Source of the DNA: Eledone cirrhosa
Lineage: Eukaryota
Reading direction: 5' to 3'
Assembly (NCBI GenBank): GCA_964016885.1
Contig: OZ024747.1
Span: 51,026,001-51,090,000 of the forward strand
Length of the DNA: 64,000 bases
Shown piece after piece: positions 122-54,549 of this stretch (positions within the stretch are counted from its first letter, which is position 1; each line of letters starts with the position of its first letter). Made by a program: the position numbers and the translations under genes. The notes beneath the pieces are model-generated. The model was given only the letters and a program-made list of their open reading frames with translations. It did not search any database and was not told where the DNA came from.

Positions 122-310
122 GGCAGTGGATTGGCAGTATCGGTAGAGGGTCGGACGCCATATTTGACGCATAGAGTTACGGCCCTTGCCATTCTGAGTT
201 CAAATCCAGCCGAGGTTAACTTTGCCTTTCATCCTTACGGGGTCGATAAAATAAAGTACCAGTAATGTACTGGGTAATTGCTGGCCTTGTGCCAATAGTA
301 GAAACAATTA
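122..310 (+). mobile_element. tRNA-derived SINE, family A (Deu/Nin-like core)
   Basis: A-box-like TGGCAGTATCGG, B-box GAGTTCAAATCC, core GCCTTTCATCCTTACGGGGTCGATAAAATAAAGTACCAG, tail CCTTGTGCCAATAGTAGAAACAATTA; more than 15 copies in window. Confidence 0.9.
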
Positions 311-393
311 TATATATAATTCGTTTATGTATTTGTTTTACAAGATTCTTGGCGTGAAATCATGCGTTGAAGCAGATAATGTTATACTTTGAT

Positions 394-677: not shown

Positions 678-682
<5 letters not shown>

Positions 683-888
683 AAAAAGTAGGACCCCGAC
701 GGCTGAGCTCAAGCCGTTTCGACGGCTAATTCTGGACTAAAATGATTTTAGTCCAGAATTAGCCGTCGAAACGGCTTGAGCTCAGCCGTCGGGGTCCTAC
801 TTTTTCCTATTACCCACTCTACTACCCTAAGTATTGAGTACTTTGGTGCGTTATGGTCCACCTGGTTCCTAACCACATTTCCTCCGTT
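678..888 (+). mobile_element. Penelope-like pLTR fragment with perfect palindrome, inserted in (TA)n
   Basis: Perfect 66-bp arms 678-743/745-810 around G744; right arm has the hammerhead 3' half GAAA-cggcttgagctcagccg-TC; (TA)n on both sides; homologous to 5798-5975. Confidence 0.65.
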
Positions 889-1114
889 ATATATATATAT
901 ATATATATATTCTGCCTTGCATCATTTTCAAATTATTACTCTCATTTTAATCACACTTATATTATATTTATATTTGTTATTTATCTATTTACCATTAATT
1001 TGGTACACATTTCTTCATTTTAACTGTCATATTTATAGTAACTACTTATAATCTGGCTGTTTCCTCATCTTTTTAATTACACATCCGATTTTTATTTATT
1101 CGCTTTATTTATAG

Positions 1115-5797: not shown

Positions 5798-5972
5798 GGA
5801 AAAGAGTCAGGTCCCCGACGGCAGATCTCCGGGCGCTTCGACAGCTAGATCCGAAACTGCCGGAGCTCTGCCGTCGGGGTCCTGACTCTTTTACTTTTAC
5901 CCACTCTACTTACCCTAAGTATCGAGTACTCTGGTGCGTTATAGTCCACTTGGTTCCTTACCACACTTTCTT

Positions 5973-5975
<3 letters not shown>
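5798..5975 (+). mobile_element. Penelope-like pLTR fragment with inverted repeat (relative of 678-888)
   Basis: aaaagagtcagg-ccccgacggcaga / tctgccgtcgggg-cctgactctttt arms; GAAA...GTC half-motif; shared tail acccactctac(t)taccctaagtat; flanked by (TA)n. Confidence 0.65.
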
Positions 5976-6032
<57 letters not shown>

Positions 6033-6048
6033 CATGTATATATATTGA

Positions 6049-6300
6049 ATAAAATGACAGGAGGCCGGACTGGTGAAATTCCTTCAAAGTTTTATTTCTG
6101 TAAATACTATTTACATTTCAGTGGCCAGGTTACGTAGAATCCTGGTGGCAACATCAGGTGTATATTGCATAATAGTTATATAATAAAGAAATAATGGTAA
6201 ACACAATCCTAAAGATTAAAAGTAGAGAAAGCAGAGAAAAAATGGTTTGACTCGAAGGCGATCAGTTGGCTACGTGTTGGTATTTGGACTGACCATAAAT
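6049..6300 (-). mobile_element. Penelope-like pLTR fragment with degenerate hammerhead (6104-6161)
   Basis: Minus strand acac-CTGATGT-stem II ccagg/cctgg-GAAA-tgtaaa-TA-gtat, followed by the ccagtccggcctcctgt motif shared with 9181-9198 and 42913-42929. Confidence 0.55.
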
Positions 6301-7753: not shown

Positions 7754-7838
<85 letters not shown>

Positions 7839-7918
7839 GAGATAAGCGGAGCAAGAAAGATTCAAACAATTTTTTAAATAAATAAAAAAATATAATTTAA
7901 ATATTCACCTATTCCTTT

Positions 7919-8000
7919 TGCTTTTACCGACGGTTTCACCTCACAAAAGATTGGAAATCCTAGGGACTTCCAATGGAAATGTTCGGATCTTCAGAAAGCA
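7919..8000 (-). ncRNA. Type I hammerhead ribozyme (mirror copy)
   Basis: Reverse complement of 8278-8359. Confidence 0.7.
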
Positions 8001-8277
8001 TTTTCCCTACCTAGGACGTAAAGTCCCAGGAACGGCAAAATATATTGCTAACTGCCAGGTAGTACAGGGTCGAATGAGGCCGTAAACTTCACCTACACAT
8101 GAACCAGCCCTTAGTAGAAGCGGAAGTAAACATAGACATGTTGTCTATCACGCCACTAAAAATAGCAACTAAATAAAACAACGGATTTGTTCTCTACATA
8201 ACGGATAATATATAAAAAGGAGATCAATATCCCAACAGGTTGCCGTTCCTGGGATTTTACGTCCTAGGTAGGGAAAA

Positions 8278-8359
8278 TGCTTTCTGAAGATCCGAACATT
8301 TCCATTGGAAGTCCCTAGGATTTCCAATCTTTTGTGAGGTGAAACCGTCGGTAAAAGCA
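8278..8359 (+). ncRNA. Type I hammerhead ribozyme
   Basis: Stem I TGCTTT/AAAGCA, CTGAAGA 8284-8290, long stem II (attggaagtcc/ggatttccaat), GAAA 8341-8344, palindromic stem III ACCGtCGGT, GUA cleavage after 8353. Confidence 0.75.
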
Positions 8360-8550
8360 AAAGTAATTGGTGAATATTTAAATTATATTTTTTAATTTAT
8401 TTTAAAAAAATATTTGAAACTTGCTTGCTCCGCTTATCTCAATTTTATAGTTCTGGTATGTCAAATGAATACCATAGAACAACCACTGTATCATAGACAC
8501 CCTATATATTTCCAGGGGTACTTAGTGCATGTGGTGATATTGATCTCCTT

Positions 8551-8718
<168 letters not shown>

Positions 8719-8919
8719 CACTCTCGCCTATTTCTTTTCCTGCACCTCTCTCTTCTAGTCCTTCCATGTCTTTCTTTATATATTCTTATATCTTTTTGCC
8801 CTTCTATCTATCTATCAATATTATATCTACCTCCCCTTGTATGCATATATATATATATATATGTCATATATAATAAAATAACAGGAGCTGAACTGGTGTA
8901 AATCCTTGAAAGGTTTATT

Positions 8920-8977
8920 ATACTATGATCATTTCAATGACCGGGTTCCGTATGAATCCGGTGATATCATCAGGTAT
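8920..8977 (-). ncRNA. Type I hammerhead ribozyme (mirror copy)
   Basis: Reverse complement of 9100-9157 with one change in stem II. Confidence 0.65.
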
Positions 8978-9099
8978 TCGAAATATAACAAGGGAGGGCG
9001 ACCGACTGAGGTAGAAGATGCTAGATGGTCGGTCGCCCTCTTGTCTTTGATTTTCGGTCCCATGGATTTTATCTGTTATATTCCTTTGTTATATTTCGA

Positions 9100-9157
9100 A
9101 TACCTGATGATATCACCGGATTCATACTGAACCCGGTCATTGAAATGATCATAGTAT
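9100..9157 (+). ncRNA. Minimal type I hammerhead ribozyme
   Basis: ATAC-CTGATGA(9104-9110)-stem II accggattca/tgaacccggt-GAAA(9142-9145)-palindromic TGATCA-TA-GTAT. Confidence 0.7.
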
Positions 9158-9352
9158 AATAAACCTTTCAAGGGCTTACACCAGTCCAGCCTCCTGTTAT
9201 TTTATAATAATTAACTCCGTACTCGCACCACCAACTACACAAACGAAGACGGGTGAGTTGCATTACGTTGAGTACTCTCCATAATATTACATCAAGATTG
9301 ACCATACGGAATGACCAATTCTATCCAGTGGTGATCCAACAAACCTAAATAA

Positions 9353-9402
<50 letters not shown>

Positions 9403-20851: not shown

Positions 20852-23800
20852 TTACAGATATATACTCAGAGTAGGCCCATTCACTCGGGCCATTCTTGCT
20901 TCTCTCACCCATCTTTCAACAAAATGCTGGGAAGAGAGCACTTCCTTCTCTACTCTGATTTTCCTTTTCAAATGAAATTTGAAAAAGTCAATCAGAGCAT
21001 CACCGAAGAGGTAAGTGCTCGTCTTCAGCCCTTTCAAACGTGTCCACCATACTATCTCTTTCGCCATGGCCACCAGACAGATAAAAACTGCCTGCCCTTC
21101 CCGGCTAAAGGAGGAGGGCGGGGCAATCCTCACGATAGACTCAGATGATAGCTGGATCCGTCCTAAACGCGACAGCAGGTGTTCGACATAAACCCACAAG
21201 TCAGCAATTTTCGGACACTGGACGAGTGCGTGCAGGACGGTTTCGTCGCCCTGCGCGCATCTCGGACATGCCCGGCTGACGGCACCTCCATGCCTGTAGA
21301 GTTTATCCCGAACTGGCAAGGCTCCTCGGTAGCACTGCCAGGCCAGAGATTTCTGGAAGTTGTCCATAGGCCCTGGCCCGAAAGTTCTTCCGAAGAGATT
21401 GGCTAGTTGATTTTCGTCGACGCCTAGAGTTTCCCCAAGTACGTCGTCGCTCTTCCCCTCCACTAATCCTCTATAGAACGCCGAGGTGGAGTTTCCACCG
21501 ATCACATTGCCCGATTGGTCGAGGGCTGTGAGCGCCTGAAGACATTCCAGTCTCCAGGCGCTCCCTCTCGGTCTTCGCTTGACCCAGGACTGCAGCTCCG
21601 TCAAGGAAACGAGCTGGGGAAAAACGCGTCTAGCAAACGGCGACCACACCTGATCACCGTCGAGGAAGAGGTGGAGATGTCGTAGCCTGAGCGCGTGCCT
21701 GCGCATCATCAGCCACGGCATGCCCAGCCCTCCACGTAGCGGGTGTTGACAACAGATGGACCGCCTGACTATCGGAGCACGTCCCTTCCACAAAAAGCGA
21801 AAGAGCAAACGCTCCAGCGCAGTCAGGCGAGGCTTAGGACAAGGTACGACGGTTAGGCGGTAGCAGATGACAGACGCGATGTACGCGTTAGCCACCTCCG
21901 CTCGACCTTTCAGGGATAGCTTCCTCTCCGCCCATTTCTGGGTGAGAGAAGCCACCCTGCTCGTCACCTCGTCCCAGTTTTTGTCCGTCTGGAGGTCCGG
22001 ACCGAACCAGACCCCTAGCAATTTAACCGGTCCGTCCGTCCAGCGCCCGACGACGCTGTTGGACGGCATGGACCTGCCTCTCCAGGTGCCGAGCTGCAGG
22101 CCCACTGACTTTTCCTGGTTGATCATTGCTCCTGTCACCGCTTCGTATTCTCTTAGTGTAGTGCCGATCGCCTCGATGTGTTTGGCGTTCGACACCACTA
22201 CGGTGACATCGTCCGCATATGCTGACACGGATCTTCCGCATCCTAGTTCGCGCGGGACTCCCCTCAACGTCTCCAGTTTGTGCAGTAATGGCTCGAGAGT
22301 CAATACGTACAAGAGGGACGAGAGGGGACATCCTTGGCGGACCGAGCGCATGATGTTGAACGGTTCCGACAGGTGACCGTTCACTCTCACTACAGAGCAG
22401 ATGTCGCTGTGCATGGCAGCGATCCAGCCTCTGAAGACGGGCCCAAAGCCAGCCGCCCTCAGGACTGCCGCTAGGTAACGATGGTCGACCCTATCGAAAG
22501 CTTTCGACTGATCTAAATTGATCAAGGACCCACCCGTGCCAGGTTCCCTAGCTACCCTCTCTACGATGTATCGCATGAGGTGGAGGTTGTCGTGGATGGA
22601 TCTGTCGGGAATGGCGCATGTCTGCGCCTCTCCCACCAGACCACCAACGACAAGCGCCAACCTCTTTGCTAGCACCTTGGCCAAAATCTTAAACTCTGTG
22701 TTTAGCAGAGTTATGGGCCGGAAATTGTCTATGTTATCCCCCTTGTTCGGATCCTTTCTCAGCAGTGCCACCGCTCCTCGGCTCACAGAACTGGGAATTC
22801 TCCCGTTCTGTTGCCAGTTGCAGTAGACGTCCGCCAAGAGGCCTCCGAACAAGTCTGGCATCTGTACGTAAAGTTCATAGGGCAGACCATCCAAACCAGG
22901 CGATTTACCCCTTGTGCAGCCAGTCATTGCCTCCCGTACTTCAGCGGCTGTTATCGGCTTTTCGCAACACTTCGCCTCAGTGGCCGAGAGCCGCGGCAGT
23001 CCGTCGAGGTAGACACTAAAGTCCATCCCTCTACCCGGCCCCCCGCTGCCCCCGAACAGCTGAGCGAAGTGTCGCTGAAAAGCTTCACACATTTGCCCGG
23101 GATCGAGTAGCATGCGCCCGTCGTGGTCCACCAAAGACCGGATCGTGGCTTTGTTGCCACGACGCGCCTCCGCCACTCGGGCCCATTGAACGGCTTTCGT
23201 CCCCTCGTGTCTGAGAGCACGCACCCTAGCTCTGACAACGCAGCCTTCGTGCTTTGCATTGAAGAATTGGTCAAGGGCCAATTTCGCCGCAAGCACGTCG
23301 GTCGCAATGCCTTTGCTAAGCGCCTCGTCTAATTTTCTAACTAGTTCTCCCTCTGCTCTATTTTTCTCTATTGCTAAAGCCTTACTAAACCTAATCGATT
23401 CTATTCTAATCGCTCTTTTCAGAGCAAACCACCACTTGTTGTTGACGATGGCCCCCGTCAACGCCCGCTTAACTAGTTCGCTAATCCGGTCTCTGTAGGC
23501 CTTGCGCGCTGGTAAGGACGCGTTTAGCTTCCAGTAGCCGGGTCCTCGTCTATGAAGCCTATCTAAGTCAAGCACACAGGTCACGAATTTGTGGTCCGTG
23601 TAGCTGACTATCTTGAATTGTGGACAGCCTATGCTAGACCTATCTATTTCCCTACAAAATACTCTATCTAGATATGATCTGGATGACCCAATGCGGTTTG
23701 TCCAAGTCCACATTCGCACATTCGGGAAATCCAATCGGTACCTGTCAGACAGTTCAAAACGCCTGAGCAGGTTGGTGAGGCTCTTGCACCCTCCACCCCT

Positions 23801-24271
23801 ATCCGCTAATCCCACACAGTCCCAGCGTGCATCTAAGATCCCGTTCCAGTCGCCCACTAACACTAAAGAGCGGGACGTTCCAAGAAAGGTCTCCAGACGC
23901 CGGAAGAAATCAGGCCGCCCTGCTCCTGTCGGGGCATAGACGGCCACTAGCCTGAAAGCTTGCCCGTCTCCGCTGGTCACGTCCAGCACCACCAGCTTAC
24001 CCTCTGGGTCCAGGAAGATGGCCCGTATGGCGAGATCCAAACCTCTCCGAAAAAGCACAGCAACTCCTCCACCCGATCCAGGACGGCTGGGAGATGCGTA
24101 CACATCGTAGCCGCCGAAGATCGGTGCGAAGGCCCGTGCTTCGGAGATTCTGGTCTCGCTGATGGCCACTACATCTATGTTTAGTGACCTGAGGTCGTTG
24201 AGCAGGTGACCCTGCTTCCATGACGACCCCAAGCCACGCGCATTTATGCTGCCTATTCTGAGTGAGGTCAT
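20852..24271 (-). CDS. Tx1 ORF2: APE endonuclease + reverse transcriptase + C-terminal CCHC zinc finger (1139 aa, intact)
   Basis: APE motifs SINARGL, ISET, VYAP, VGDWN, YLDRVF, TDHK; RT motifs KSPGLDG, FRPITLLN, LDQSKAFDRVDH, RQGCPLS, YADD; CPRC..ETVLHALVQC. Confidence 0.97.
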   Translation of the reverse strand: MTSLRIGSINARGLGSSWKQGHLLNDLRSLNIDVVAISETRISEARAFAPIFGGYDVYASPSRPGSGGGVAVLFRRGLDLAIRAIFLDPEGKLVVLDVTSGDGQAFRLVAVYAPTGAGRPDFFRRLETFLGTSRSLVLVGDWNGILDARWDCVGLADRGGGCKSLTNLLRRFELSDRYRLDFPNVRMWTWTNRIGSSRSYLDRVFCREIDRSSIGCPQFKIVSYTDHKFVTCVLDLDRLHRRGPGYWKLNASLPARKAYRDRISELVKRALTGAIVNNKWWFALKRAIRIESIRFSKALAIEKNRAEGELVRKLDEALSKGIATDVLAAKLALDQFFNAKHEGCVVRARVRALRHEGTKAVQWARVAEARRGNKATIRSLVDHDGRMLLDPGQMCEAFQRHFAQLFGGSGGPGRGMDFSVYLDGLPRLSATEAKCCEKPITAAEVREAMTGCTRGKSPGLDGLPYELYVQMPDLFGGLLADVYCNWQQNGRIPSSVSRGAVALLRKDPNKGDNIDNFRPITLLNTEFKILAKVLAKRLALVVGGLVGEAQTCAIPDRSIHDNLHLMRYIVERVAREPGTGGSLINLDQSKAFDRVDHRYLAAVLRAAGFGPVFRGWIAAMHSDICSVVRVNGHLSEPFNIMRSVRQGCPLSSLLYVLTLEPLLHKLETLRGVPRELGCGRSVSAYADDVTVVVSNAKHIEAIGTTLREYEAVTGAMINQEKSVGLQLGTWRGRSMPSNSVVGRWTDGPVKLLGVWFGPDLQTDKNWDEVTSRVASLTQKWAERKLSLKGRAEVANAYIASVICYRLTVVPCPKPRLTALERLLFRFLWKGRAPIVRRSICCQHPLRGGLGMPWLMMRRHALRLRHLHLFLDGDQVWSPFARRVFPQLVSLTELQSWVKRRPRGSAWRLECLQALTALDQSGNVIGGNSTSAFYRGLVEGKSDDVLGETLGVDENQLANLFGRTFGPGPMDNFQKSLAWQCYRGALPVRDKLYRHGGAVSRACPRCAQGDETVLHALVQCPKIADLWVYVEHLLSRLGRIQLSSESIVRIAPPSSFSREGQAVFICLVAMAKEIVWWTRLKGLKTSTYLFGDALIDFFKFHLKRKIRVEKEVLSSQHFVERWVREARMARVNGPTLSIYL

Positions 24272-24306
24272 GTTTAAAATAGAGTGGAAAAGATGGAAAA
24301 GACCAC

Positions 24307-26403
24307 TTACCGTACTTTTGGTAGAGGAGGGATGGTTTTTACATCCCTTTTCACTTGATCGTCTGGTGAAGGGACCGTTGAATCGTCCCTTCGGCTGGTC
24401 GTCGGCTCTTCTAAGAGAATGTCTGAATATACTCTTCGATTAATGGTTCCTCCTAGGTCCCTGAAATCACCAACTGCGTTGGGGAATTTCGTTTTAATGT
24501 TTGTGTATTGTTTCTGTGCTATTTTTAGCAGTCTTATGTTAGTTGGCGTTTTGATTGGTGCTGGTATTATGTAGTCCTGTTGTGAAATGTCTGTGTGTTC
24601 AATTATGTAAGTCATTAATTTCTTGTTGTGTGTGTTTATTGCCGTGCATTTGTTTTTCTGGGGGTGGGGTGGGGTTCTGCTATTTTCTTGTCGTTGTTGC
24701 TGGGTGTGTGTGTTTTGTTGTTGTGTTTGCGATGTTGGTGCTTGTGGTGGTGGTGTTGAAGGTGTTGTTGGCGGTGGGGTTGTCGCCGGTGGTGATGGTG
24801 GTGCTGGTGTGGGTGGTGATGGTGTTGGTGGTGTTGCTGCTGTGGGTCTCTTTGCAGTAGACTTTACCCTTTTCTCATTTCTTTCCTCCCTTTTCAAAGG
24901 CGACGATGCGCTGCTTCTGCGTTTGTGCCTTCTTGAGACCTTTTGCCATCCCTCTCCCACCTCACACTCCATGTCTGATTCTGTAAGGTCGGTGAGGGGT
25001 ACCAGCTCCACTCTTTCACTTGTTGTTGTTGGTGATGTTTGCACTGGAGTCTCTGTTGCAGCTGCATTTGGTATTGCTGTTGTTGTTGTTAATATTTCCA
25101 CTGCTGCTGCTGTCTTTGATTTCCGTGGAGTGGGTATGGGTGCCACGGACCTATCGTTCCTGGTTGCCGCTTGTCCTGTTGCTGGTAGCCGTGGAACCGG
25201 ATTCGGAAGGAGGGGGGTTTTCTCCTTTCTCAGGGTCTTCTCGTTGCAGAAGGCCCTGAGGTGAGTCTTCGATCCACAGCGAAAGCATTTCGGGCGTTTG
25301 CCCTCAACACTTATGGGCAGTTGAGTGCCGTTATCGAAGTCTATCACATCCGGGATAGCTTCGATGCACTCCTGGTTGGTTTGGATTAGCATCTCAATGG
25401 AGGAGCCGACCCAATCTTCTCTTACTTTTTTCTGTACTTGCAGTACAGTTGTTTTGTCCTCGATTCCGACGAGGACAGACGCGGCCAGCCAAGAAGGGGT
25501 CATTCCGGGGGGGACGTGGGTCAGTTTGACCCTCACAATTTTTTGCCCGCAGTAGGAGGGCACCAACACCATTTCCTCGCTCCTTAGGGTCACTACTGAT
25601 TGGGCCTTTGCCTCCTGGGGTGTGGCAAAATGTCCGTCTACGGTGGCATATTTTTTTCCTCGGGTGATGTGCGTTTTCCGCTGCCACACAGACCCCAAGG
25701 CTTTTTGTATTTGGGCCTCTGTAGCTCTTTCCACCCTACGGGATTTTGTACTTACTGTACGGTACGTGACCGTACAGTGCTCTTGGGTTTCGAAAAATTT
25801 TTCCGCTGCCTTGCAGATTGCTCGGTGTCCGTTCTTTGTCGCCATCTTCTTCGCTTCCTCTAATTCCTCATTTGTTATGAGGATTGTTTCCAAGTTTTTC
25901 GCAATACCTGCAAATGAGATTGGTTTTTCTCTGCTGTTGTTGTTGTCGTCAGAGCTGCTGGTACTTTTGTTGTTGCTGCAGGTACTACGACTACTGCCTC
26001 CGCCGCTGTTGCTGTGGTTGTTGTTGGTGTTGCTGCTGCTAATGCTGTTGTTGTTTATGCTGCTGGTGCTGCTGTTGCGGCTGCTACTGTTGTTTTCATT
26101 GTCACTGTTGCTGTTGTTATTACGGCTGCTACTGCTATTATTCCTGACGTCAGACGAATGAACTGGGTTTTCGTATTTCCCGCACACCTGTTTCGTGGCT
26201 GTCGTCGTCGTCGTGGAGAAACCTTGCACGCTTTGCACGAGACTTTTCTTTTCTTTCGTCACTTGCGAAAGAGAAGGGAGGGAGAGAGACACATTTAAAG
26301 AAGGGAGGGAGAGAGACAATCTTCTCTCTGCTGTAGTGATGATTGAGAAAGAAGAAGACGGAATGAGTGGGAGTGACGTATGAAATTTCTTTTTCGTAGC
26401 CAT
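24307..26403 (-). CDS. Tx1 ORF1, gag-like nucleic-acid-binding protein (698 aa)
   Basis: Open 698 codons upstream of ORF2; zinc knuckle CFRCGSKTHLRAFC (CX2CX4HX4C); S/N-rich and P/T-rich low-complexity tracts. Confidence 0.9.
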   Translation of the reverse strand: MATKKKFHTSLPLIPSSSFSIITTAERRLSLSLPSLNVSLSLPSLSQVTKEKKSLVQSVQGFSTTTTTATKQVCGKYENPVHSSDVRNNSSSSRNNNSNSDNENNSSSRNSSTSSINNNSISSSNTNNNHSNSGGGSSRSTCSNNKSTSSSDDNNNSREKPISFAGIAKNLETILITNEELEEAKKMATKNGHRAICKAAEKFFETQEHCTVTYRTVSTKSRRVERATEAQIQKALGSVWQRKTHITRGKKYATVDGHFATPQEAKAQSVVTLRSEEMVLVPSYCGQKIVRVKLTHVPPGMTPSWLAASVLVGIEDKTTVLQVQKKVREDWVGSSIEMLIQTNQECIEAIPDVIDFDNGTQLPISVEGKRPKCFRCGSKTHLRAFCNEKTLRKEKTPLLPNPVPRLPATGQAATRNDRSVAPIPTPRKSKTAAAVEILTTTTAIPNAAATETPVQTSPTTTSERVELVPLTDLTESDMECEVGEGWQKVSRRHKRRSSASSPLKREERNEKRVKSTAKRPTAATPPTPSPPTPAPPSPPATTPPPTTPSTPPPQAPTSQTQQQNTHTQQQRQENSRTPPHPQKNKCTAINTHNKKLMTYIIEHTDISQQDYIIPAPIKTPTNIRLLKIAQKQYTNIKTKFPNAVGDFRDLGGTINRRVYSDILLEEPTTSRRDDSTVPSPDDQVKRDVKTIPPLPKVR

Positions 26404-26636
26404 GTTGTTTTTTGTTTAAAATGAATATTGGGTACAAAACCCCAATAACTGGTTATTTAACCCCGAAGGGCCAAATAACGGACAGAAAGACCCCTCTCAC
26501 GAGGAGGAGGGTGTCTTTATCAACAATTTGGTTCAAGTTTTAAACAATTTACAATTGTTTTAACGGTTAAAAATTACTATACCTTACAGAGCCGAGCCTC
26601 CGTCAACCATGGCATTCAATAATAATAATAATAATA

Positions 26637-28346
26637 ATTAATCACTTGTTCTACATGGATGACCTGAAACTATTTGCAAAAAAAATGATGAACAATTGCA
26701 AGGGCTATTATCCACTGTGGAGCAGTGCAGTGATGACATTAAAATGGAGTTTGGACTAGATAAATGCGCCAAAGCAACGTTCACCAGAGGAAAGCTGCTG
26801 AAGAGTTCAGACATTAATCTTGATCGGGGGAACGTGATAAGAGAACTTGATCAAGAAAAAACTTACAAATATCTAGGTGTTTGTGAAGGAGACGGAATCA
26901 AACACTCGACAATGAGGGAAAGGATAAGGAAGGAATGTTACCGCAGAGTAAAAGCAATCTTAAGAACGGAATTGAATGCAAGGAATAGGATCGATGCCAT
27001 AAACACGCTTGCCATACCAGTAGTAACCTACAGTTACAATGTCATCAACCTGTCAAGCACAGAGATCCGTAGGCTCGATACAAAAATTCGAAAATTCTTA
27101 ACCATGCACAGAATGCATCACCCTAAGGCAGATACAAATAGAATATATCTTCCTAGGAAAGAAGGAGGACGTGGGTTAATCCAGTTAGACATTGCGTTGA
27201 AAACTGCAACAATTGGATTATCTACATATCTAAGGGAATCAAATGATTGGATGATCAAACTCGTTTTGAAACACGAAAGCATCAAAAGATCATATTCCAT
27301 TACAAAAGATGCACAAAGATACAGTAATGGACTACAAATTTCAGAAGTCCCATTTACTGCTGAAATGGAAAACACAGAAAAAGCAAAGCAGGTAAAAGTA
27401 ACTGCAAAGAAAGAACTGCTACAGAAACTGGCTAAGAAATGGCAAGAAAAGCCTCTGTATGGAAAATACCCAGAATGAGCTAACAATCCTGATGTTGACA
27501 AAACTTTAACCCATCAGTGGTTGGCATCCTCTGGACTGAAATCGGAGACTGAAGGACTGATTATATCAGCACAAGATCAGTGTCTGCCAACAAAAAATTA
27601 CCAAGCCAACATAATAAAAAATGGATGCAGCCCATTATGCCGTGTATGCAAAAAACAACCAAAGACCATTGACCATATAATTTCAATGTGCAGTCCTATA
27701 GCTCCAACCGAATACCTAAACAGGCATGACAGAGCTGCACAATACATACATTGGATAATGTGTAAGCATTTTGACATGCCCCATCAAAAGAATTGGTGGG
27801 AGCATCAACCACCTCCCATACATGAAAAAGATCACATCTCAATCTTGTGAAACTTTAGCATCCAAACAGACCGAAAAATAGATGCAAATAAACCTGATAT
27901 AATATTGAAAGACCTTAAAAAGAGGGTATGCCTGCTAATTGATATGTCCGTTCCAATAGACAAGAATGTATCTATAAAAACATTTGAAAAATTGAGCAAG
28001 TATAAGGACCTGGAGATAGAAATTGGAAAAATGTGGAAATTGAGAACTAAAACAATACCAGTGGTTGTAGGCGCTCTGGGAATGATACCTAAGGGGTCTA
28101 ATGATTACTTATCGCAAATCCCAGGAAACCTGCGTATAGGAGAAATACAAAAGATAGTACTAATGGGAACTGCCCATATACTAAGGAAGATTCTGTCAAT
28201 ATAAGTACATCACAATCTAAACACTAAAGATGCATGTGTGAGTATGTATATTCTTTCTTGAACATGGCGGACCTTGTTGTCTCTTGAGGTCACTGGTTGT
28301 GACTTGGTGATAACTCGTATGAACATAAAGCAAGATAAATGCAACT

Positions 28347-42069: not shown

Positions 42070-42780
42070 GGCTTTAGCGTGTATTAAGGGGAGGTGTGCA
42101 TGTGTGTGTGTATGTGTGAGTGCGCGCATATGTGTATGCGTGCGTGTTGTAGCTGTGGTTTGAGAGGAGATATAATCTATTAAACTCTAAGAGCAGCAAC
42201 CTGGTTATACTTCCAAGTCATAGAAGAACTTTCCTTTTACTGCAGATATAATGGGGAAGGGCATATACGCCACACAATCCTATTTAAATTTTGCAATCGG
42301 GCATATTTCGAAGATTATATCATCCTCACTATACACCTACGTATACATGTTCTGTGTATTTGGGTATAAAAATATAATTCTTTGACCTTATGTAATATCA
42401 GATAATACAGTTTTAGATAGATTCTGCCTTAAGAGAGAGAGACTCGTATATCACTTTCTTTCTTGCTTAATATTTTGTTTTCATTATTTTCTTCATTATA
42501 ATGTTTGCACTATTCGAAATCTGAAATCTGAGTAAAAAGTAAGTCATTGACAAAAAGTTGTTACATTTTATTAGGGAAATCCATGGATGCGTGGATCGCA
42601 ACCGCATGCGTGGTTTCGTGTTCAATCTCGCTGTGACATCTTAAGTAAATTTCTTCTAGTGTTGAAGAAGCAATATACCTAAGATGGGTAAATATACCTG
42701 ACGTGGGTAGTCTAATGACTTGCGATTAAAATTTGGCAGTCGGGAGTGCAGAAGCTCGTCATGCATATATAGATATAGCT

Positions 42781-43065
42781 TAAAACAAGAACAGAAGGCC
42801 GGACTGGAAAATTTTACTTTAGAATTTTTATTCTTCGAATCATCCGAGTAAGGTTATAGGGCTGGGCCATCGAAATGTGTATAGTGATTTCTCGGAATTA
42901 AAAATAAATTTTCCAGTCCGGCCTTCTGTTGTTGTTTAATTAACACTTTACTATGTTCCTGCACCAACCACAGGATAGCTCATCTACGATGGATGATTTG
43001 CCACACCGTTTACCAACCCGAACAACCAGTCCTACCCATTGGTAAACAGCCTAATATAAAGGATA
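42781..43065 (+). mobile_element. Truncated inverted-repeat Penelope-like element (relative of 8872-9355)
   Basis: aacagaaggccggactggaaaatt / aattttccagtccggccttctgtt arms; hammerhead 3' half GAAA-tgtgta-TA; tail with gcacca, ends in (TA)n. Confidence 0.6.
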
Positions 43066-48802: not shown

Positions 48803-49505
48803 TCATAAAACATATCTATAGAATCACCAGATAAAATATATACCGTTTCCTCTCCCAATTAGCATAATTAACCATACAAAAATTCGATTAGACCAAGCTA
48901 TAAGAATAAAGGCTTCTATGAAGAAATCTCCGACAAATAACCGAAAGCAGCCCTTCGCGGCGGTTGCACGGAGTATTTATCGAGTATTTCGACAGCGTGT
49001 ATAAATCGACCAGATATACAGTCAACTAAACAGAATCCCGTTAGGTTGAGATACAATTTTGGCTGTATTGGGCTGCGCTTTCTAGCAAAAGGCCACCAGC
49101 CGTAAGCAACTAATCACATTCTTTCTAACTTGATCGCTGCTACGTCCCGATTCTTAGCCATTTTTTAATGTATTCATGGCGCGATCACTTTGGAAAATTA
49201 ATTGTCTAAATTTTAGCTAACTCCTGAAGAGTCCGGTGCTCCAGATGTCCAATGTTATCGGATATCTTAAAATGCGGACGAAACCATGGTAGAGGTAACT
49301 AAATATGTTCACTTTTTTCCTAGTTTATTTTACACCTGATTCTGTTTAGTTGACGAAGGGCTGCTTTCGGTTATTTGTCGCAAATTTCGTCATAGAAGCC
49401 TTTATTCTTATAGCTTGGTCTAATCGATTTTTTATATGGTTAATTATGCTAATTGGGAGAGGAAACGGTATATATTTTATCTGGTGATTCTATAGACATG
49501 CTTTA

Positions 49506-53490: not shown

Positions 53491-53941
53491 GGTGGCTGCC
53501 AACTCGTTTTCGAGTACGGTCACTACTTTATATCCATGTAGGAGAACCCCTACCGATGCGCTGAACGAGTGTGACTTTTGAGTCCAGCCAGCGACTTGAA
53601 AACTCTGGTACAAACACTACACCTGTGACAATTATTGACACACAGTGCTGGGCCCATGGTACCATGTGATGACAAGTGCAGAGAGATCTCCAGATATAAA
53701 GCAATGCCTGTGCCGTGAAGCTTTTATAGTGAGCAAAGGCATTGCACAAAGCCAGTCCCACTCTCTTAACCAAGATGATATTTACCAAAAAGAAGAGCAA
53801 GTCAACATCATTGGATACCATCAGGGTTGCAGGTGTTATATCAAAGGGCAAAGGAGCTCTTAAGAGTCAATGGCCTTCCAAAATCACCGGGAGAGATGAC
53901 CCCTTAGCCTTTGTCAAGGCAGAATTCTAGGAGAAGGAAAA
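53491..53941 (-). mobile_element. RTE-derived non-autonomous element with 5' inversion (53844-53941)
   Basis: Same as 43125-43560 but distal ~95 bp in opposite orientation; (TACA)n both sides. Confidence 0.8.
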
Positions 53942-53957
53942 AAAAAACATACATACA

Positions 53958-53985
<28 letters not shown>

Positions 53986-53988
<3 letters not shown>

Positions 53989-54549
53989 GATGGGATAGCT
54001 AGAACCATCTGGAACGCACTTCGGAAAACAAAATTAACAACAAACGAGGAAGAATATATTGAGACAGATGGCACTAAGGAATACTGGTGGAACCTGAAAA
54101 TAAAAACTGCCACCAAATTAAAGCACAACCGGTCTGATATTGTAGTTTGGGACCACACATTGAAAACGTGTTCTGTTGTGGAGATCAGCTGCCCACTTGA
54201 TGTAAACGTTGTCAGAAAAATACAGGAGAAGGAGGACATCAACGGACCATTGATGAGGAGTTTACAAATCCAGTATCCAAGATACACCTTTAGCTTCATA
54301 CCCATCATTATTGGTGCTACGGGTTATATACCAACCCGCTTGGACCAAAGTATAACTGAACTTGGATTTGCGGACAAAAAGCGCAGCTCCCTAATTCATA
54401 GTCTACAAATGGCTGCGATAGCTGGCACCTTCAAAATTTGCAAATCATTCTTGCGATTCAAGAGATGACAATTTCTTTTCTTTTACAACCTTGCCACCAG
54501 GAAGGTGGCCGGTCAAAAAAATATACTCGAAATTAAGAGAAAGAGAAAA
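53986..54549 (+). mobile_element. 3' fragment of an RLE-type (R4-like) non-LTR retrotransposon in (TACA)n
   Basis: YWWNLKIKT...KHNRSDIVVWD...CSVVEISCPLDVNV..K..EK...FIPIIIGATG; stop 54468; (CATA)n tail. Confidence 0.85.

What the first reader, a model, noticed from the sequence alone, without database searches (positions are those of the whole stretch)
8872..9355. Second, sequence-unrelated double-hammerhead element with relatives at 6.1k and 42.8k
Seen: the same architecture (diverging arms each with a hammerhead, unique 3' tail on the right arm, ending in (TA)n) but different sequence; stem III is only the palindrome ATGATCAT, and the spacer holds a separate 12-bp GC-rich hairpin. Relatives at 6049-6300 and 42781-43065 share the ccagtccggcc(t/c)ctgt motif downstream of the cleavage site. 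Inference: stem III likely needs dimerisation, and the recurring layout points to a common integration mechanism rather than chance palindromes.
Basis: partly seen in the sequence, partly recalled or inferred. Interest (0 to 1): 0.72.

Follow-up and report, generated by a model that had tools for sequence, protein, structure and literature searches.

The report
Non-coding passenger of Hydra-Penelope retroelements
This is one cut-short, two-armed insertion of an abundant non-coding repeat (about 1.9 kb at full length) that carries a predicted self-cutting hammerhead RNA and likely borrows the copying enzyme of Penelope-like jumping genes; the mirror-image layout is a known footprint of those elements, and the two ribozyme motifs lie on opposite strands, so they are not a working pair.

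Summary
In detail: two minimal type I hammerheads on opposite strands, palindromic stem III, one tail, (TA)n flanks. But the 484 bp are not the unit. They are one insertion of a family with at least 5,470 arms: variable 5' truncation, two fixed 3' ends about 144 nt apart, and a non-coding 1.9-2.0 kb unit in head-to-tail partial tandems. This is the published Penelope-like (PLE) layout. Stem III covaries between families at a pair that only a dimer can form, which supports dimer folding. A read-through RNA of this locus would be one long hairpin. Arm ends show no excess at the cut site, so the template was uncut or religated. Both ends fall 5-10 nt before a small repeated hairpin that coding Hydra-clade PLEs of this genome share, which points to Hydra as the carrier. 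The scan noted this twin hairpin and similar two-armed elements before on other DNA. The window's 6.1k and 42.8k relatives are broken copies without a working hammerhead. The direct parent, cleavage and circles are not shown. Verdict: a long variant of a known kind.

The parts
8846..8868 (.). (TA)n target remnant, left
   Evidence: sequence
8869..8995 (-). short arm: 5'-truncated copy that stops at end A (no tail)
   Evidence: inner junction varies between copies
8920..8977 (-). minimal type I hammerhead motif of the short arm (core from 8973, predicted cut after 8924)
8994..9355 (+). long arm: 5'-truncated copy of the ~1.9-2 kb non-coding unit, running to end B
8994..9040 (+). GC-rich hairpin, 13 bp; part of the unit and a modest hot spot of 5' truncation
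9100..9157 (+). minimal type I hammerhead motif: stem I 9100-9103/9154-9157, core 9104-9110, stem II 9111-9141, stem III palindrome 9145-9152, predicted cut after 9153
9181..9197 (+). motif shared by families A, B, C just before end A
9205..9210 (+). end A: where tail-less arms join (TA)n (inferred first start site of reverse transcription)
9214..9276 (+). first copy of the twin element (ACTCC, 48-nt loop, GTTGAGTACT); the second copy lies just past end B in the template and is absent from this insertion
9211..9355 (+). tail between end A and end B
9356..9400 (.). (TA)n target remnant, right
   Evidence: sequence
6043..6298 (-). family B relative: single tail-less arm, core broken in this copy
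42774..43061 (+). family C relative: tailed arm truncated inside stem II plus short inverted arm (42783-42814); no core in this copy

Best explanation
The locus is one truncated, two-armed insertion of a non-coding repeat with a 1.9-2.0 kb unit that is likely copied in trans by the reverse transcriptase-endonuclease of Hydra-clade Penelope-like elements. Shown: thousands of dispersed arms, two fixed 3' ends in (TA)n, variable 5' ends, head-to-tail partial tandems with one junction, no coding remnant found, a covarying hammerhead, and a twin hairpin shared with coding Hydra families. Inferred steps: (1) a partial tandem is transcribed into a longer-than-unit RNA; (2) the Hydra protein, probably as a dimer, binds the two hairpins and nicks both strands of a (TA)n tract; (3) one subunit starts 5-10 nt before hairpin 1 and the other 5-10 nt before hairpin 2, giving a tail-less and a tailed cDNA; (4) both stop early, often at the GC hairpin, and are joined head to head. 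The hammerhead would act only as a dimer in same-strand tandems, where it could trim the RNA or release a unit for circularisation. It is copied through uncut, and in this inverted locus it would be locked in a long hairpin.
For: Copy number: 3,916 candidates, 40 scored at 87-93% identity apart from itself; 5,470 exact 24-mers across the cut site, control 0. Ends in 30 position-ordered loci: 16 at end A, 11 at end B, 3 others; a TA run follows in 26 of 30 against 11.7% of random flank places. Inversion junction differs copy to copy. Tail runs into the next unit with one junction in 21 of 30 loci; spacing 1,903-1,980 nt in 9 arrays, 2 arrays differ. 41 PLE ORF pieces give no tblastn hit inside units. 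Of 38 diverging pairs 31 have one tail; arms agree at subfamily sites (34 of 34 against 17.1 expected; five more sites alike). In 38 joined one-tail pairs the tail-less arm is longer in 17, the tailed arm in 10, which a DNA fold-back of one strand cannot give. GCTCC-N4-7-GTTGAGCACT: 1,185 matches against 3; of 30 loci 25 lie just before a Hydra ORF and 5 just after end B of this family; at least four more Hydra types share it. (TA)n starts 5-10 nt before each hairpin in this family and in two coding families, spacings 144, 89-90 and 91-93 nt. Literature: PMC8557442 (inverted copy, one-sided tail, Hydra in (TA)n with hammerheads), PMC11167929 (two internal start sites define the tail; uncut RNA is the main substrate), PMC4209133 (dual minimal hammerheads 100-700 bp apart on opposite strands).
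Against: No coding element with this family's own hammerhead and tail was found in 47 + 30 + 16 loci around PLE ORFs; the link to Hydra rests on short shared motifs and their positions. Only a few Hydra families were sampled, and Neptune-like elements are also abundant. The 145-nt tail is longer than the 30-40 bp in print. Arm concordance could be raised by gene conversion between inverted arms, and the window's own arms disagree at one such site. The covariation is one change per family pair among related sequences, on 22 hand-picked rows. Stem II begins with a U-U mismatch in 132 of 134 arms, which may weaken cleavage. In the young coding family the first hairpin is only a partial match.
Confidence: 0.8

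Rival explanations
1. It is a large retrozyme in the strict sense: the dimeric hammerhead cuts tandem transcripts into 1.9-kb monomers that are ligated into circles, and the circle is the template copied from both DNA ends. This differs from the best reading only in the form of the template.
For: Copies run through the cut site and round the unit junction; one locus has three 1,903-nt units; one locus repeats a private 465-nt deleted unit three times over both arms; the hammerhead is kept with compensating changes. Smaller animal retrozymes do form circles (PMC7229834).
Against: An uncut tandem transcript explains the same data. No excess of 5' ends at the cut site: 14 true ends against 15 and 10 at two control places. 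Arrays are mostly one unit plus a part. For the anole element no reads end at the cut site and ribozyme mutants still insert (PMC11167929).
Confidence: 0.35
2. The arms are 3' stubs of an ordinary coding PLE whose ORF was not reached, not of a non-coding element.
For: Most hammerhead stubs in this genome belong to coding Hydra families. For families B and C the full unit was not traced.
Against: For family A the unit closes on itself at 1.9-2.0 kb with no ORF over 114 codons in five loci and no PLE protein match; after hairpin 2, where Hydra has its ATG, the family has no coding match.
Confidence: 0.07
3. A fold-back DNA transposon or MITE that targets (TA)n and carries hammerhead-like words by chance.
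For: Long inverted repeats; (TA)n hides any target-site duplication.
Against: Single arms, unequal ends, a new junction in each copy, 5' truncation and partial tandems; covariation on the RNA structure.
Confidence: 0.02
4. The 484-bp layout is itself a functional unit whose two hammerheads cooperate to release a small or circular RNA.
For: The 30 best full-length matches look alike.
Against: That set was selected by the query; position-ordered loci show every other layout. The motifs are on opposite strands; the whole transcript folds at -253 kcal/mol into one hairpin.
Confidence: 0.03

Closest known systems
Hydra clade of C-terminal EN+ Penelope-like elements, incl. Hydra-1_Obim (Craig et al. 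2021, PMC8557442; passages, section 11 whole, supplement passages)
   Same: (TA)n targets, hammerhead in the repeat, partial tandems, inverted 5'-truncated copy, one-sided tail; the hairpin before the ORF of this genome's Hydra-type elements follows end B here.
   Different: No ORF; tail about 145 nt against 30-40 bp; first hairpin has a 48-nt loop; the twin hairpin is not in the passages read.
Poseidon of Anolis carolinensis, PAc (Frangieh et al. 2024, PMC11167929; parts 1-2 of 4)
   Same: Two internal start sites define the tail; AT-rich targets on both strands; RNA downstream of the start is needed; uncut RNA is copied.
   Different: PAc is coding and starts in an AC-rich stem loop without homology to the target; here both ends are AT-rich and resemble the target.
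Minimal PLE hammerheads (Cervera and De la Pena 2014, PMC4209133; parts 1-2 of 4)
   Same: Short stem I, long stem II, palindromic stem III, predicted dimer; pairs 100-700 bp apart on opposite strands read as truncated PLEs.
   Different: Here stem II starts with a U-U (families A, B) or A-C (family C) mismatch and keeps a C-C mismatch at the fourth position.
Metazoan non-LTR retrozymes (Cervera and de la Pena 2020, PMC7229834, passages; Li et al. 2026, 10.64898/2026.07.22.740005, part 1 of 5 and passages)
   Same: Non-coding, type I hammerhead in each unit, tandem copies, proposed PLE dependence.

Membership tests
Penelope-like element (insertion structure) | partial head-to-tail tandems (pLTR) | tested here: met
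Penelope-like element (insertion structure) | inverted 5'-truncated copy and one-sided tail | tested here: met
Penelope-like element (insertion structure) | hammerhead within the repeat | tested here: met
   (motif and covariation only)
Autonomous PLE | ORF with RT and GIY-YIG endonuclease | tested here: not met
Hydra-dependent element | (TA)n insertion | tested here: met
   26 of 30 loci
Hydra-dependent element | end signals shared with a coding Hydra element | tested here: met
Hydra-dependent element | a coding parent with the same terminal region | tested here: inconclusive
   not found in the loci sampled
Non-LTR retrozyme | non-coding tandem units, each with a type I hammerhead | tested here: met
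Non-LTR retrozyme | unit of a few hundred bases | tested here: not met
   1,903-1,980 nt in 9 arrays; 465 nt in one locus only
Non-LTR retrozyme | self-cleaved linear and circular RNA in tissue | not testable with these tools
   needs RNA data or bench work
Dimer-type minimal hammerhead | conserved core and spacing | tested here: met
   113 of 134 core, 129 of 134 spacing (arms chosen by motif score)
Dimer-type minimal hammerhead | self-complementary stem III kept by covariation | tested here: met
Dimer-type minimal hammerhead | G10.1-C11.1 pair next to the core | tested here: inconclusive
   U-U first, then G-C, G-U or A-U
Dimer-type minimal hammerhead | cleavage as a dimer | not testable with these tools
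   bench assay needed
MITE / fold-back DNA transposon | fixed, equal terminal inverted repeats | tested here: not met
MITE / fold-back DNA transposon | target-site duplication | tested here: inconclusive
   hidden by (TA)n flanks

The most novel reading that the evidence does not exclude
A protein-less 1.9-kb RNA hijacks Hydra retroelements through two copies of a small hairpin that place the two subunits of the enzyme, so that hairpin spacing alone sets the Penelope tail. This family stretched the first hairpin's loop to 48 nt and its tail grew to 144 nt, a natural test of the rule. Its dimer-only hammerhead may turn tandem transcripts into the largest retrozyme circle yet described.
Probability: 0.4. 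Interest if true: 0.65.

Novelty: new variant of a known kind. Interest (0 to 1): 0.42.

Why it matters
How Penelope-like elements choose their start sites and make lopsided inverted insertions is open; one element has been studied in vitro. This family and its coding neighbours give a concrete rule (start 5-10 nt before each of two hairpins), a long-loop variant and a young, intact 713-codon Hydra ORF with which to test it. The counts also show that these hammerheads are conserved yet copied through uncut, which narrows what they can be for. The double-hammerhead layout itself is known.

Tried and rejected
1. First idea, a 365-nt unit starting at the GC hairpin: a selection artefact; position-ordered loci run further. 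2. A 465-nt short-unit subfamily: only one locus has it; the other 27 of 30 loci fetched show no short tandem. 3. Cut-site footprint: 25 pattern hits at the cut against 18 and 20 at control places; after inspection 14, 15 and 10 true 5' ends (I corrected the script's label by eye in 2, 2 and 3 rows): no excess. 4. Search for a coding parent with a profile of 26 hammerhead-to-tail stretches: only nested or neighbouring copies. 5. Rfam: no hammerhead model among the 150 hits listed for the window or the 11 for 7830-9400. 6. Expression: no RNA holder listed. Contigs of four runs of unknown kind were laid; two runs under other organism labels gave 11 and 6 short contigs, nearly all partial; not used as evidence. 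7. DNA fold-back from one cDNA: fails on 17 pairs with the longer tail-less arm. 8. The spacer hairpin as an HDV-like ribozyme or tRNA-type promoter: no fit by eye to recalled patterns, no Rfam hit. 9. Lunse et al. on dimeric PLE hammerheads is not held; known only as cited in PMC6765202 (passages), so the U-U variant may be described there. Paper searches; none listed a paper on the twin hairpin or this family. bioRxiv supplements could not be seen.

Full report
Setting. The window lies in a 3.0-Gb, microsatellite-rich animal genome. An octopod host is my inference from genome size and from the likeness of its elements to Hydra-1_Obim; I did not test it.

Observation. The relatives share more than the short motif: a profile of the family finds both. 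In the window both are broken: 6.1k is one arm with core CTGATGT, and 42.8k starts inside stem II.

The family. A search with the 484 bp gave 3,916 candidates; the 40 scored are 87-93% alike apart from the locus itself. In the 30 loci fetched the outer ends are fixed but the inner junction differs each time. These loci were chosen for looking like the query, so I took 30 loci in genome order by the shared motif (4,113 exact matches, control 0). They show single arms, pairs, and 5' ends from a few bases to over 1.4 kb upstream. The 3' ends are two: 16 of 30 just after the motif, 11 of 30 about 145 nt further, 3 others; three loci appear twice in this set. A TA run follows in 26 of 30 against 11.7% of random flank places. 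Walking upstream closes the unit on itself: in 21 of 30 loci the tail runs into the next unit with one junction, at 1,903-1,980 nt spacing in 9 arrays, with 2 arrays off that range. Of the 29 other closest matches to the window's spacer, 4 run to the 1.5-kb edge of the locus, so the window's copy is a truncated long unit. No tblastn hit of 41 PLE ORF pieces falls inside a unit and five loci have no stop-free stretch over 114 codons.

The hammerhead. Among arms chosen by motif and score, family A has the core in 113 of 134, the 31-nt spacing in 129 and ATGATCAT in 109; 81 are intact on all counts. Family B (6.1k type) has ATGTACAT in 13 of 28, family C ATATGTAT in 10 of 18. Between A and B, stem I pair 3 changes T-A to C-G, stem II pair 8 G-C to A-T, and the two central bases of stem III AT to TA. 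Those two bases are neighbours and can pair only between two molecules. On 22 hand-picked rows 83.8% of cells pair against 25-36% for slid controls; related sequences count many times, so this is about one event per pair. A monomer stem III costs +4.7 kcal/mol, the duplex gives -7.2. This matches the dimer-type PLE hammerheads of PMC4209133 (parts 1-2 of 4) and the review PMC6765202 (passages). Against easy activity: stem II starts with U-U in 132 of 134 arms. The two motifs of this locus are on opposite strands, and a read-through RNA folds into one hairpin at -253 kcal/mol. Same-strand tandems are where a dimer could form.

Is the RNA cut before copying? 5,470 arms read intact across the cut site. 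Arms that begin exactly there are not in excess: 25 hits against 18 and 20 at control places, 14 against 15 and 10 after inspection. So the template is uncut or religated, as reported for the anole element (PMC11167929, parts 1-2 of 4).

How the two arms arise. Of 38 diverging pairs 31 have one tail, 4 none, 3 both. The arms agree at six subfamily sites far more than chance (29 of 33, 35 of 38, 34 of 37, 34 of 34, 35 of 37, 34 of 37, against 17-26 expected), so both come from one source; conversion between arms could add to this, and the window's own pair, not in that set, disagrees at one site. Of 59 pairs examined 48 join directly; among the 38 with one tail the tail-less arm is longer in 17, the tailed arm in 10, equal in 11. 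Two RNA-primed starts fit; a fold-back of one DNA strand does not. The GC hairpin is a modest stop: 11 of 23 arms that reach it end within 30 nt, against 6 of 29 in the 30 nt before.

The carrier. The genome holds many PLE ORFs. One young family (150 matches at 96-100% identity, 713 codons) has the Hydra marks listed in PMC8557442 section 11 (RW[R/K], DKT, CxCX5C, CxxC, CxH) and resembles Hydra-1_Obim by eye (not computed). It shows the same layout. Just past its second end, before the ATG, lies GCTCC-loop-GTTGAGCACT, which also follows end B of our family. The pattern has 1,185 matches against 3; of 30 loci, 25 precede a Hydra ORF (24 by same-strand tblastn, 1 by its flank) and 5 follow our end B. 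More divergent Hydra types carry it too. A second copy, ACTCC-loop-GTYGAGTRCT, follows end A; a relaxed pattern gives 30,162 matches against 60. In family A this copy has a 48-nt loop in 102 of 118 arms. (TA)n begins 5-10 nt before each copy in family A (105 and 69 arms), in the young coding family (67 and 25) and in a second coding type (20 and 28); the copies are 144, 89-90 and 91-93 nt apart, the last from 2 loci only. The record printed just before Hydra-1_Obim in the paper's supplement ends with a similar hairpin (name not shown). A coding element with our own hammerhead and tail was not found.

What is known. The layout is in PMC8557442, opposite-strand hammerhead pairs in PMC4209133, two internal starts in PMC11167929, PLE-dependent non-coding elements in PMC7229834 (passages) and 10.64898/2026.07.22.740005 (part 1 of 5 and passages). 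Six searches listed no paper on this family or the twin hairpin. Earlier notes of this scan describe two-armed elements and the twin hairpin on other DNA. I saw the hairpin; the notes are not independent support. No note matched this sequence.

Verdict. Real, and explained by a known mechanism. What it adds is a long non-coding passenger, dimer-only covariation, a negative cut-site test and a long-loop case for the twin-hairpin rule. Interest 0.42.

Noticed in passing
window 7836-8443: The first two-armed element has hammerhead motifs at 8284 (+) and 7994 (-) with stem III ACCGTCGGT; a related motif occurs twice 459 nt apart in L099.
   Followed up: no
window 49224-49291 (+) and 9887-9813 (-): Two more hammerhead-like motifs of other families.
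   Followed up: no
window 680-900 and 5798-5975: Very short fold-back stubs of another family with a tail that holds a similar ACTCT-loop-GAGTACT hairpin just after the arm.
   Followed up: partly
L390:2230-3620: One insertion repeats a private 465-nt deleted unit three times over both arms; no other locus among 40 scored has the whole junction. A weak hint of repeated copying of one small template.
   Followed up: partly
L332, L348 (young Hydra-type family): Its hammerhead-like motif has core CAGAAGA instead of CUGANGA in most copies, with a U-U pair at the base of stem II as in this family.
   Followed up: no
window 9111-9141 and relatives: A C-C mismatch at the fourth position of stem II is kept in families A (126 of 134), B (22 of 28) and C (12 of 18): a possible tertiary contact.
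   Followed up: no
L092:3740-4130 (-) and other full units: The unit holds an internally duplicated module of about 280 nt, shared by subfamilies only 70-80% alike; possibly promoter elements.
   Followed up: no
L457-L483: A very young long-unit subfamily (99% alike over 99 nt), often as inverted pairs 2-4 kb apart: the best material for RNA tests.
   Followed up: partly
window 20852-26415 (-): Two-ORF LINE with an unbroken 1,195-codon ORF (Exo_endo_phos, RVT_1, zf-RVT).
   Followed up: no
window 123-318 and at least 12 other places: A 197-bp dispersed repeat, SINE-like.
   Followed up: no
window 26663-27850 and 53908-54468: Fragments that read like another LINE by eye; no Pfam hit for the first piece.
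   Followed up: no
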